Source of the DNA: Naegleria gruberi | Taxonomy: Eukaryota | Length of the DNA stretch: 1,202 nucleotides | Direction: 5' to 3' (one strand) | Assembly: GCA_000004985.1 (NCBI GenBank) | Contig: GG739506.1 | In this document: piece after piece, positions 1 to 1,202 of the stretch | How positions within the stretch are numbered: position 1 is the stretch's first letter | Layout of the letters: every line of letters starts with the position of its first letter | Translations under genes and position numbers: made by a program | Notes under the pieces: model-generated | Told to the model about the DNA's origin: nothing | What the model saw: only the letters and a program-made list of their open reading frames with translations | Databases searched by the model: none

Positions 1-642
1 GTTCACCCAAAATGAAATACCAAGAGCAGCAGCATTAAATGTAACAAATATTGATGCAGAAACAATTGCTAGAGGTCTACTAAAATAAAAAGTTACTGTA
101 GAAATTAGAAGCTTATAAACTGAAAATATATGCAGAGGTAATGTAGGTCCATAGCTTATTTGACACAAAATTTGCAGCATTCCCACCACTGCACTCCTTG
201 TCATATTCACATATATAAAATGGTTCAAATTTGTTACCATATTCTTAATGAAAATATTGAGTGAAATATGAAATGCATGCTCAACCAACGTAATGATAAA
301 GAAAACTGCAGGTCCTTTAGACCAACAAAATGTCAAGCCAAATAAAAAAGGGAGAACCACAAGATAAGTTCCAATTTGAGAGTGATATTTCTGATGTTGT
401 TTCACTTGGTCAAATAATTCAGAATTGTTATCCGAAGCATTGTTTATATTTGGTGGTGGTGGTTTGTCAGATGATTTATCGGGTGTTGAAGAAAAAGGCT
501 TTTCCGAAGGTATCAGATCATCACAACTACTCTTCGTTGATGATAGAGATGAGGAGGAAGATGACGGGGCTAGCACTACTACTCGTCGGCGATCCAATTG
601 TTGTGCACAACTCTGATTGTTGTTATTGGTGTCGGAAACCAT
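1..642 (-). CDS. 5'-complete, 3'-truncated ORF (continues past position 1): predicted multi-pass integral membrane protein with a Ser/Pro/Asn-rich low-complexity N-terminal region; family not recognised
   Basis: Hand translation of the minus strand in the frame whose codons occupy 1-3, 4-6, ...: ATG at 642..640 in the context AAAAAAAAGCACCAAACAAA-ATG-G (A at -3, A-rich leader). The nearest upstream in-frame stop is TGA at 708..706, with no intervening ATG. From there the frame is open for 214 codons to the window edge: MVSDTNNNNQSCAQQLDRRRVVVLAPSSSSSSLSSTKSSCDDLIPSEKPFSSTPDKSSDKPPPPNINNASDNNSELFDQVKQHQKYHSQIGTYLVVLPFLFGLTFCWSKGPAVFFIITLVEHAFHISLNIFIKNMVTNLNHFIYVNMTRSAVVGMLQILCQISYGPTLPLHIFSVYKLLISTVTFYFSRPLAIVSASIFVTFNAAALGISFWVN... 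A 642-nt stop-free frame in ~65% AT DNA is very unlikely by chance. Hydrophobic stretches of 18-25 residues (IGTYLVVLPFLFGLTFCW; AVFFIITLVEHAFHISLNIFI; AVVGMLQILCQISY; LAIVSASIFVTF.AAALGISFWV) indicate transmembrane helices. Yeast-like codon choice (TTG, AGA, GCT, GGT, ATT). It is absent from the ORF track only because no stop lies inside the window. Confidence 0.8.
   Translation of the reverse strand, partial: MVSDTNNNNQSCAQQLDRRRVVVLAPSSSSSSLSSTKSSCDDLIPSEKPFSSTPDKSSDKPPPPNINNASDNNSELFDQVKQHQKYHSQIGTYLVVLPFLFGLTFCWSKGPAVFFIITLVEHAFHISLNIFIKNMVTNLNHFIYVNMTRSAVVGMLQILCQISYGPTLPLHIFSVYKLLISTVTFYFSRPLAIVSASIFVTFNAAALGISFWVN
440..600 (-). repeat. In-frame low-complexity / trinucleotide tracts within the N-terminal coding region: (TGG)4 at 451..462 encoding PPPP, and GAGGAGGAAG / AGAGATGAGGAGGAAGATGA at 541..564 encoding a poly-Ser run
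   Basis: On the minus strand, CCACCACCACCA gives PPPP, and TCATCTTCCTCCTCATCTCTATCATCA gives SSSSSSLSS. The surrounding context is STKSS...SSTPDKSSDK. These are simple-sequence codon repeats of the kind that expand or contract by slippage. Confidence 0.5.
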
Positions 643-800
643 TTTGTTTGGTGCTTTTTTTTGTTGGTTGTTAATTTGGCTATAGTCGAAGCAGTAGTTG
701 TGGGCTCAATGTAGTTCTTTTAGGTGGAGATTCTTCTAAATAATTACAAAATTAGCAACTCGGTTATATGAAAGATTTGCAAAGAGGCGTCAAGAGGTGA
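643..800 (-). promoter_or_regulatory. Probable core promoter / 5' UTR of the membrane-protein gene, including an A8 tract at -13..-20 and a TATA-like ATATAA at ~764..769 (minus strand)
   Basis: Sits directly upstream of the ATG at 642. T8 at 655..662 on the plus strand equals an A8 leader on the minus strand. Plus-strand TTATATG at 764..770 reads CATATAA on the minus strand, about 125 bp upstream of the ATG. A second AT-rich block, TAAATAATTACAAAATTAG, lies at 737..755. Yeast TATA elements typically sit 40-120 bp upstream of the TSS, so placement is plausible but unproven. Confidence 0.4.
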
Positions 801-850
801 GTTTTGTTTAATTAATTTACAAAAAGATGATTTAAATTACAAAGAGGTTT
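776..850. repeat. Short direct-repeat motif cluster in the intergenic spacer: CAAAGAGG at 780..787 and 840..847 (60-bp spacing), degenerate CAAGAGG at 791..797; TTACAAA at 744..750, 817..823, 837..843
   Basis: Direct reading gives tttgCAAAGAGGcgtCAAGAGGtgag (776..800) and aattaCAAAGAGGttt (835..850), plus aaTTACAAAatt (742..753), ttTTACAAAaag (815..826), aaTTACAAAgagg (835..847). On the minus (gene) strand the 8-mer reads CCTCTTTG. Confidence 0.4.
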
Positions 851-928
851 CAATCAATTGATTATTGGGATTACTGTACTACTGAGTAGTTCACTGCTAA
901 GGTACCAATAGTTAAATGTCTTATTAGC
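800..928 (-). terminator. Probable 3' UTR / polyadenylation region of the Sec14-like gene
   Basis: Immediately downstream (minus sense) of the TGA at 931..929. It is AT-rich and, read on the minus strand, contains yeast-type poly(A)-signal-like elements: GCTAATAAGACATTTAACTATT, TAATTTAAATCATCTTTTTGTAAATTAATTAAAC. The boundaries are approximate and the poly(A) site cannot be placed from sequence alone. Confidence 0.35.
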
Positions 929-1202
929 TCAACTGTCTTCATTGAATTTCACTGTTGCTTTTCCACCAAATTGAGTTGGAACATTTTCTATTTCTAACAG
1001 ATCATCCACTTCATTAACATCATAGGCTACTTTGATTTTGTCATATGTTTTCTTATCTACAAATGGTGAAATCATCTTGAGCATAATCTTGTAGGTCCAA
1101 TTAGGACTATATACAACAACAGAACTCAATCTCTCTGCATAATAATTGGAAATTCTCAAAAATTCTTTGATAATGGCTACATCACAATTCTTCATAGCAA
1201 TG
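929..1202 (-). CDS. C-terminal part of a Sec14-like (CRAL-TRIO domain) phosphatidylinositol/phosphatidylcholine transfer protein; 5' end lies beyond the right edge; stop TGA at 931..929
   Basis: The track ORF 929..1195 (-) translates to ...RISNYYAERLSSVVVYSPNWTYKIMLKMISPFVDKKTYDKIKVAYDVNEVDDLLEIENVPTQFGGKATVKFNEDS*. From memory this matches the end of the Sec14/CRAL-TRIO lipid-binding domain of S. cerevisiae Sec14 (…[69 protein letters not shown]…), sharing the NYYxER, KPF(L/V)D, (K/Q)I and LP/VP-x-x-FGGK signatures. The codons before the track's 'M' (1201..1196 give His-Cys) are sense codons, so the ORF is open to the window edge and the real start is upstream. Confidence 0.85.
   Translation of the reverse strand, partial: IAMKNCDVAIIKEFLRISNYYAERLSSVVVYSPNWTYKIMLKMISPFVDKKTYDKIKVAYDVNEVDDLLEIENVPTQFGGKATVKFNEDS

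What the first reader, a model, noticed from the sequence alone, without database searches (positions are those of the whole stretch)
1..642. The longest gene in the window is not in the supplied ORF track: a >=214-codon minus-strand ORF open to the left edge
The track lists only ATG-to-stop ORFs that lie wholly inside the window. It therefore offers two plus-strand ORFs (330..674, 425..616) where the real gene is the antisense minus-strand frame. That frame has a clean ATG at 642..640 bounded by an upstream in-frame stop, a disordered S/P/N-rich N-terminus and then at least four hydrophobic helices. The arrangement of a long hydrophilic N-terminus followed by a polytopic membrane domain is real protein architecture, and I cannot assign a family from memory. 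It is the only part of the window whose function is open.
Basis: seen in the sequence. Interest (0 to 1): 0.5.

Follow-up and report, generated by a model that had tools for sequence, protein, structure and literature searches.

The report
Amoeba histidine-kinase membrane sensor, N-terminal part
The unlisted minus-strand ORF is real, but it is not a yeast protein of open function: it is the start (loose tail plus five of six membrane helices) of a sensor histidine kinase of a family found so far only in Naegleria-like amoebae, an uncharacterised but already catalogued kind of gene.

Summary
The minus-strand frame 642..1 is open for 214 codons from a first ATG, with an in-frame stop 21 codons upstream. 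That is longer than chance gives in 34% G+C DNA.

The yeast interpretation does not hold. An exhaustive HMMER scan of 1.84 billion representative proteins found only 7 relatives (E 1.6e-26 to 7e-4, 26-35% identity). All named ones come from Heterolobosea: Naegleria gruberi, N. fowleri, N. lovaniensis and Willaertia magna.

In every relative the matching region is the N-terminal membrane module of a hybrid histidine kinase (6 TM helices, HisKA, HATPase_c, receiver). Window residues 75-214 align almost without gaps to TM1-TM5. The window ends about 60 residues before the expected phospho-acceptor H-box.

Most likely this is the intramembrane sensor end of a new, divergent member of the multi-TM Naegleria histidine kinases catalogued by Kabbara et al. 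2018. Its signal is unknown. The kinase part is inferred, because it lies outside the window.

The parts
1..642 (-). 5' part of a protein-coding gene. It has 214 codons from ATG 642..640 and is open at the left edge. Predicted to be the N-terminus of a hybrid histidine kinase of the heterolobosean multi-TM type.
   Evidence: Translation; upstream stop; shuffles. HMMER hits P0001-P0007, E 1.6e-26 to 7e-4. All are histidine kinases by Pfam and come from Naegleria or Willaertia.
418..642 (-). Residues 1-75: hydrophilic S/P/N-rich tail, presumably cytoplasmic and disordered. Its length and sequence are not conserved among the relatives.
   Evidence: Composition seen in the translation. In the alignment this region is mostly gaps or low complexity, and the tails of the homologues range from about 20 to about 230 residues.
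322..417 (-). Residues 76-107: a pre-membrane amphipathic helix that runs into TM1 (IGTYLVVLPFLFGLTFCW), then the short outer loop WSKGP.
   Evidence: AF2 helices at model residues 2-19 and 22-31 (model residue + 74 = protein residue). Kyte-Doolittle peak at 88-108. G91 and G110 are conserved in 8 of 9 sequences.
238..309 (-). Residues 112-135: TM2. It carries the invariant membrane-embedded glutamate E121 within VEHAFH.
   Evidence: AF2 helix 38-61. E121 is invariant in 9 of 9 sequences.
151..228 (-). Residues 139-164: TM3, with near-invariant R149 at its inner end and Q161.
   Evidence: AF2 helix 65-90; conservation counts.
130..153 (-). Residues 164-171: the family signature loop Y-G-P-x-x-P-x-H (YGPTLPLH) between TM3 and TM4. 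G165 and P169 are invariant.
   Evidence: Alignments A1 and A2.
91..135 (-). Residues 170-184: TM4 (HIFSVYKLLISTVTF), with the conserved motif Y/F-K-I/L-L.
   Evidence: AF2 helix 96-110; alignment.
4..78 (-). Residues 189-213: TM5. The window ends at its outer end. In the relatives, TM6, a continuous signalling helix and the H-box follow within about 60 residues.
   Evidence: AF2 helix 115-139. Alignment to the homologues. Model of the full module of P0001, in which helix 146-212 runs from TM6 into the H-box.
643..928 (.). A 286-bp A+T-rich spacer (32% G+C) between two minus-strand genes in tandem. It must hold the 3' end signals of the Sec14-like gene and the promoter and 5' UTR of the kinase gene. 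It is not dissected further here.
   Evidence: Stops occur in all frames; G+C content.
929..1202 (-). 3' end of a Sec14-like (CRAL-TRIO) lipid-transfer protein gene, with its stop codon at 931..929. It is an upstream neighbour, not part of the kinase gene.
   Evidence: Pfam CRAL_TRIO E 2.4e-12 and CRAL_TRIO_2 E 6.2e-8. PDB sequence hits to yeast Sfh1/YKL091C (E 1e-6), Sec14 and Pdr16.

Best explanation
The ORF is the first 214 codons of a membrane-bound hybrid histidine kinase from a heterolobosean amoeba (a Naegleria-like organism).

Shown:
- The window encodes a non-conserved cytoplasmic tail (residues 1-75).
- It then encodes helices TM1-TM5 of a compact six-helix membrane module with very short loops.

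Inferred from all relatives: beyond the left edge come TM6, one continuous helix that leads into the phospho-acceptor H-box of a HisKA domain, an ATP-binding HATPase_c domain and a C-terminal receiver domain.

Inferred mechanism:
- The protein works as a dimer.
- The six-helix bundle has almost no extracellular mass. It therefore senses something in or at the membrane, such as a lipophilic ligand, an ion or a property of the bilayer.
- The sensing site would be formed by the conserved polar residues buried in the helices: invariant E121 in TM2, H122/H125, R149, Q161, and the YGPxxPxH turn.
- A shift of TM6 is passed down the continuous helix to the H-box. This switches autophosphorylation on His, then transfer to the protein's own receiver Asp, and onward phosphorelay.

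The signal itself is unknown.
For: - Homology: an exhaustive HMMER scan gave 7 hits, 4 of them below 1e-10, and in every hit the match lies at the protein's N-terminus. Pairwise BLASTP to N. gruberi P0002 gave 34% identity over 137 residues with one gap, E 2e-30. tblastn to the genomic loci gave up to 39% identity.
- Domain content: the six full-length relatives have HisKA, HATPase_c and Response_reg after the matching region.
- Short gene models: the three short models (P0007, P0010, P0011) stop at the H-box. For P0011 the cause is a GT..AG intron, and the next ORF continues the DHp domain. No kinase-less member is therefore known.
- Alignment: it is nearly gap-free through TM1-TM5, with invariant E121, G165 and P169.
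- Structure: AF2 of the window segment gives pLDDT 89.3 and pTM 0.78, all helical. AF2 of the full module of P0001 gives pLDDT 88.2, with TM6 continuous with the H-box helix.
- Literature: most of the 24 N. gruberi histidine kinases have multiple hydrophobic helices and no known sensing domain (PMC6324907). The 6TM modules of CqsS/LqsS kinases and of cyclases are functionally interchangeable receptors for lipophilic ligands (PMC4821796).
Against: - The catalytic domains are not in the window. A truncated, pseudogenised or kinase-less paralogue cannot be excluded.
- Identity to any known member is only 26-39%, and no relative shares the Sec14-like neighbour, so orthology is not established.
- The source organism is not identified. 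Exact DNA and peptide-pattern scans of the viral and metagenome collections found nothing.
- No ligand, topology or activity has been measured for any family member.
Confidence: 0.8

Rival explanations
1. The ORF encodes a stand-alone polytopic membrane protein, or a decayed or truncated paralogue, that kept the sensor module but has no kinase core.
For: Only TM1-TM5 are visible in the window. Three database relatives are annotated as proteins of 317-333 aa. The family is multi-copy and fast-evolving, at 24-39% identity between members.
Against: The short models end exactly at the H-box (LSHE.RNP), so they do contain the start of the kinase. For P0011 a canonical GT..AG intron follows and the downstream ORF continues the DHp domain. 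All six complete models carry the full kinase and receiver. The window ORF shows no frameshift or stop over 214 codons and keeps every invariant residue.
Confidence: 0.1
2. One reading: a yeast (Saccharomycotina) membrane protein of an unknown family, next to a Sec14 homologue.
For: The DNA is A+T-rich (34% G+C), the protein has N- and S-rich tracts, and the neighbour is a Sec14-like gene whose best solved relatives are yeast Sfh1, Sec14 and Pdr16.
Against: No fungal protein is among the hits at E <= 1e-3 in 1.84 billion representatives. All named hits are Naegleria or Willaertia. Naegleria and Willaertia loci have a similar G+C content, 30-38%. The yeast PDB matches only reflect which Sec14 proteins have been crystallised. 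The Sec14-like fragment found no relative through the word-indexed search, so it has no close counterpart among sequenced yeasts.
Confidence: 0.03
3. The window comes from a giant virus or another mobile element of an amoeba that captured a host histidine-kinase gene.
For: The DNA is A+T-rich, two same-strand genes sit close together, and the sequence is divergent from every host copy.
Against: Exact-DNA and peptide-pattern scans of 2.9 million viral contigs found no relative. A 286-bp spacer and 34% G+C are ordinary for Naegleria nuclear DNA. Nothing viral is present in the window.
Confidence: 0.04

Closest known systems
Naegleria gruberi multi-TM hybrid histidine kinases (Excavata HK groups II-IV of Kabbara et al. 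2018, PMC6324907), e.g. XP_002671522 (P0002), and their N. fowleri, N. lovaniensis and Willaertia magna homologues
   Same: The N-terminal membrane module is homologous (E down to 1.6e-26). Helix order, loop lengths, the invariant E in TM2 and the YGPxxPxH turn are the same. All also have a variable hydrophilic tail before TM1.
   Different: Identity is only 26-39%, so this is not an orthologue of any sampled member. The neighbouring genes differ. The kinase and receiver parts cannot be seen in the window.
CqsS / LqsS quorum-sensing hybrid kinases of Vibrio and Legionella (6TM, HisKA, HATPase_c, REC)
   Same: In the homologues the domain order and design are the same: six minimal-length helices, very short loops, no periplasmic domain, and TM6 leading straight into the H-box helix (design described in PMC4821796). 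This is the best working model for how the protein senses a signal, namely a lipophilic ligand bound within the bundle.
   Different: No sequence relationship was detected. The NCBIfam scan of the modules matched only generic H-box segments, and the exhaustive HMMER search returned no bacterial protein. The ligand is unknown. The heterolobosean proteins also have a Cys-rich insert in the DHp domain.
6TM membrane anchors of class III adenylyl cyclases (Rv1625c/Cya, AC5, AC9) and of the diguanylate cyclase ImcA
   Different: Sequence identity is 6-10% and the profile search of PDB sequences gave no hit. Foldseek did not recover the match. The output domain is a kinase, not a cyclase. The resemblance may be convergent packing of six short helices.
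Pfam PF13239 '2TM domain'
   Same: There is a weak match over the TM1-TM2 hairpin, residues 79-126.
   Different: The score is 16.5-17.7 bits against a gathering cut-off of 24.8, so it is not a member. The match most likely reflects hydrophobic composition.

Membership tests
Heterolobosean multi-TM hybrid histidine kinases (Kabbara 2018 Excavata groups II-IV) | N-terminal sensing region with multiple hydrophobic helices that is homologous among the members | tested here: met
   phmmer E 1.6e-26, 3.3e-25, 5.1e-14 and 5.5e-13 to four members. The alignment is nearly gapless over TM1-TM5, with E121, G165 and P169 invariant.
Heterolobosean multi-TM hybrid histidine kinases (Kabbara 2018 Excavata groups II-IV) | HisKA domain with H-box, HATPase_c domain and C-terminal receiver domain | not testable with these tools
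   By alignment these parts begin about 60 residues beyond the left edge of the window. They are present in all complete relatives. The source contig could not be found.
Heterolobosean multi-TM hybrid histidine kinases (Kabbara 2018 Excavata groups II-IV) | Assignment to one particular group (II, III or IV) of the published tree | not tested
   The groups were defined mainly on HisKA sequences, and that domain is absent from the window.
CqsS/LqsS-type 6TM quorum-sensing kinases | Six minimal-length TM helices with short loops, joined directly to the H-box helix | tested here: inconclusive
   Five such helices are in the window. The sixth helix and the continuous TM6-to-H-box helix are seen only in the homologue model.
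CqsS/LqsS-type 6TM quorum-sensing kinases | Sequence homology of the membrane module to CqsS/LqsS | tested here: not met
   No bacterial protein is among the HMMER hits. The NCBIfam scan matched only H-box segments. No direct profile comparison with a CqsS sequence was run.
6TM anchors of class III nucleotidyl cyclases | Shared three-dimensional fold of the six-helix bundle plus the exit helix | tested here: inconclusive
6TM anchors of class III nucleotidyl cyclases | Sequence similarity and a cyclase catalytic domain | tested here: not met
   The profile A1 found nothing among PDB sequences at E <= 10. The homologues carry kinase domains, not cyclase domains.
Fungal hybrid histidine kinases / any Saccharomycotina protein family | A detectable homologue in fungi | tested here: not met
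   There are 7 hits in 1.84 billion representatives. All named ones are heterolobosean and the unnamed ENA metagenome protein clusters with N. gruberi; a further unnamed ENA metagenome relative (P0011) has no named cluster mate.
Sec14 / CRAL-TRIO (neighbouring gene, 929..1202) | Match to the CRAL_TRIO lipid-binding domain above Pfam's threshold | tested here: met
   PF00650 scored 47.4 bits against a cut-off of 22.6, covering profile positions 70-153 of 153.

The most novel reading that the evidence does not exclude
The six-helix module would be a Heterolobosea-specific intramembrane receptor that shares ancestry, not just shape, with the 6TM anchors of adenylyl and diguanylate cyclases and with CqsS-type kinases. 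It would bind a lipophilic, self-produced or prey-derived signal at the buried E121/H/R149 site. That would make it a eukaryotic quorum- or lipid-sensing two-component receptor. It would also be independent support for the contested idea that cyclase membrane anchors are receptors.
Probability: 0.15. Interest if true: 0.6.

Novelty: new member of a known kind. Interest (0 to 1): 0.3.

Why it matters
For annotation, the result turns an "open function" ORF into the 5' end of a two-component sensor kinase. It also moves the window from yeast to a Naegleria-like amoeba.

Two-component signalling is absent from animals, and Naegleria fowleri is a lethal human pathogen. Amoeba-specific membrane histidine kinases are therefore possible drug targets, and none of them has a known signal.

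The window adds a divergent sequence that sharpens the list of invariant residues in the sensor module: E121, G165, P169 and R149. Together with the models, it gives a concrete, testable analogy to the CqsS and cyclase 6TM receptors. In itself, though, it is one more member of a family that has already been catalogued.

Tried and rejected
- Pfam on the ORF and on its TM part gave only a sub-threshold "2TM" match.
- phmmer against PDB sequences gave only noise. The profile A1 against PDB sequences gave nothing.
- The word-indexed homology search found nothing for the ORF or for the Sec14 fragment. With the profile it found only two ENA proteins.
- Attempts to find or extend the source contig all failed:
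  - an exact 47-mer search in the viral and metagenome contigs;
  - peptide-pattern scans of both collections;
  - an exact look-up of the 88-aa Sec14 ORF.
- The synteny test for a CRAL_TRIO neighbour was negative at six homologue loci. The look-up of N. gruberi P0002 found no record.
- NCBIfam matched only generic H-box segments. The "MASE3" hit lies in the kinase part of that model, not in MASE3 itself.
- The AlphaFold-database fold library was unavailable. Foldseek against PDB gave nothing.
- The plus-strand ORFs 330..674 and 425..616 were rejected as antisense artefacts.
- A giant-virus origin was considered and found unsupported.

Full report
**1. Observation**

The window is 1202 bp with 34% G+C.
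- Translating 642..1 on the minus strand gives 214 sense codons starting with ATG 642..640.
- Reading the same frame from 900 shows a stop 21 codons upstream (705..703) and no ATG in between. The frame is open for 235 codons to the left edge. No other frame exceeds 117 codons.
- A stop-free run of at least 214 codons was reached in 0 of 2000 mononucleotide shuffles and 1 of 2000 Markov-1 simulations.

The ORF tool lists only complete ORFs, so it misses this frame. It offers instead the antisense ORFs 330..674 and 425..616, which have no family match.

The Sec14-like gene (1202..929, minus strand; CRAL_TRIO E 2.4e-12; related to Sfh1, Sec14 and Pdr16) lies upstream of the ORF in tandem, not downstream.

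**2. What it is**

Curated libraries gave no assignment. Pfam returned only a sub-threshold 2TM match, PDB sequences returned noise, and the word-indexed protein search returned nothing.

The exhaustive HMMER scan of 1.84 billion representatives found seven proteins (E 1.6e-26, 3.3e-25, 5.1e-14, 5.5e-13, 4.6e-5, 7.9e-5, 6.8e-4; 26-35% identity). In each, the match lies at the N-terminus of the hit.

Their sources are Naegleria lovaniensis (three), N. gruberi (two), N. fowleri and Willaertia magna, all Heterolobosea. A profile search added one more protein, from an ENA metagenome (P0011). No fungal, bacterial or viral protein appeared.

Pfam shows that the six full-length proteins (782-1033 aa, plus the 501-aa P0001) are hybrid histidine kinases. 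After the matching region they carry HisKA, HATPase_c and Response_reg.
- P0001 is followed in the genome by a separate 362-aa receiver-domain gene. Together they look like one split gene model.
- The short models P0007, P0010 and P0011 end precisely at the H-box. In locus L001 a GT..AG intron follows "NPLMG", and the next ORF continues with the DHp sequence.
- Every known relative of the window ORF is therefore the sensor end of a histidine kinase.

**3. Anatomy**

In the alignment, window residues 75-214 align almost without gaps to the homologues.
- E121 (in VEHAFH), G165 and P169 (in YGPTLPLH) are invariant.
- G91, G110, F114, R149 and Y164 are conserved in 8 of 9 sequences. L94, N146 and Q161 are conserved in 7 of 9.
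- The 75-residue S/P/N-rich tail is not conserved. Tails in the relatives range from about 20 to about 230 residues.

AlphaFold2 on the window segment with this small alignment is confident (pLDDT 89.3, pTM 0.78). It gives a pre-membrane helix that runs into TM1 (76-105), TM2 (112-135), TM3 (139-164), TM4 (170-184) and TM5 (189-213), joined by loops of 3-6 residues.

The window ends at the end of TM5. In the relatives, TM6 follows and then the H-box about 60 residues further on.

A model of the complete module of P0001 (pLDDT 88.2) shows TM6 and the H-box helix as one continuous helix, residues 146-212.

With six helices and a cytoplasmic kinase, the N-terminal tail must also be cytoplasmic (inference). 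The extracellular surface is then limited to two or three very short loops.

**4. How it most likely works**

A histidine kinase with no extracytoplasmic domain and conserved polar residues inside its helices is an intramembrane sensor (established knowledge of CqsS, LqsS, AgrC, DesK and LytS-type kinases).

The proposed mechanism is inferred, not shown:
- A dimer of six-helix bundles binds a lipophilic molecule or ion, or reads a membrane property, at the site formed by E121, H122/H125, R149, Q161 and the YGPxxPxH turn.
- Movement of TM6 is passed along the continuous helix to the H-box. This controls autophosphorylation, transfer to the protein's own receiver, and phosphorelay.

- For the full module, AC5, ImcA and AC9 score 14.4, 14.3 and 14.2 with 200-207 of 226 residues aligned. 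Rv1625c scores 11.3, and the next hit is a designed protein at 11.1.
- The 6TM module of the CqsS kinase can replace the Rv1625c anchor and confer ligand control. The authors describe the two modules as being of essentially identical design (PMC4821796).

Caveats apply.
- Foldseek gave no match with E below 4.
- The sequence profile finds nothing among PDB sequences.
- NCBIfam matches only the generic H-box.
- That the aligned cyclase residues are the TM regions is inferred from the aligned lengths.

I therefore claim "works like" and not "is homologous to".

**5. Comparison with what is known**

Kabbara et al. (PMC6324907) catalogued 24 N. gruberi histidine kinases in three groups. They noted that most have multiple hydrophobic helices, that very few have a known sensing domain, and that none resembles other HK groups. 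Later genome papers only count the kinases. I found no functional study.

The window ORF passes the one family test that can be applied here, homology of the sensing region. The kinase and receiver features lie outside the window.

It is at most 39% identical to any sampled member and shares no neighbours with them. It is therefore a new, divergent member, probably from an unsampled heterolobosean or an unannotated paralogue.

The source contig could not be recovered.

**6. Rival explanations**
- A kinase-less or decayed paralogue (0.1) cannot be excluded without the sequence to the left. No such member is known, and the ORF is intact with all invariant residues kept.
- A yeast gene (0.03) is contradicted by the taxonomic distribution of the hits.
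- A giant-virus copy (0.04) has no support.

**7. Verdict**

The taxon was wrong and the function is not open. It is the intramembrane sensor end of a heterolobosean hybrid histidine kinase.

- Novelty: new member of a known, uncharacterised kind.
- Interest: 0.3.

The modest added value is the set of invariant membrane-embedded residues and the structural analogy to the cyclase and CqsS 6TM receptors.

Noticed in passing
window 929..1202 (minus strand): C-terminal 90 residues of a divergent Sec14-like CRAL-TRIO protein, ending ...VPTQFGGKATVKFNEDS*. The word-indexed search found no relative. The best solved relatives are yeast Sfh1 and Sec14, at only E 1e-6.
   Followed up: partly
homologues P0001-P0006, just after the H-box (e.g. 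P0001 residues ~297-310, 'GEKCVDGCKHCF'): All full-length relatives carry a conserved Cys-rich insert, C-x3-C-x-H-C, between the two DHp helices of the HisKA domain. It could be a metal or redox site. Pfam HisKA aligns across it as an insertion. It lies outside the window.
   Followed up: no
L001 2481..2524, and the gene models P0007, P0010, P0011: A short GT..AG intron directly after the H-box ('NPLMG|gtaagt...tataag|') truncates the P0011 gene model at 333 aa. The downstream ORF 2525..2833 continues the DHp domain. P0007 and P0010 (317 aa) end at the same position, so they probably have the same cause; this was not checked. These 'predicted proteins' look like mis-annotated kinase fragments.
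   Followed up: yes
L002 10001..11506 and 11593..12681 (N. lovaniensis PYSW02000023.1): The best hit P0001 (501 aa: TM module, HisKA and part of HATPase_c) is followed 87 bp downstream on the same strand by a 362-aa gene with a receiver domain. The two are probably one hybrid kinase split by the annotation.
   Followed up: partly
L005 9315..11879 (N. lovaniensis): A guanylate/adenylate-cyclase-domain gene lies next to the family member P0005, convergently oriented. This is noted only because the sensor module resembles cyclase membrane anchors. It may be coincidence, since Naegleria has at least 81 cyclases.
   Followed up: no
window 643..928: The 286-bp spacer between the two tandem minus-strand genes has 32% G+C and stops in all frames. 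It was not analysed for promoter or polyadenylation signals, because the scanning tool covers only bacterial consensus sequences.
   Followed up: no
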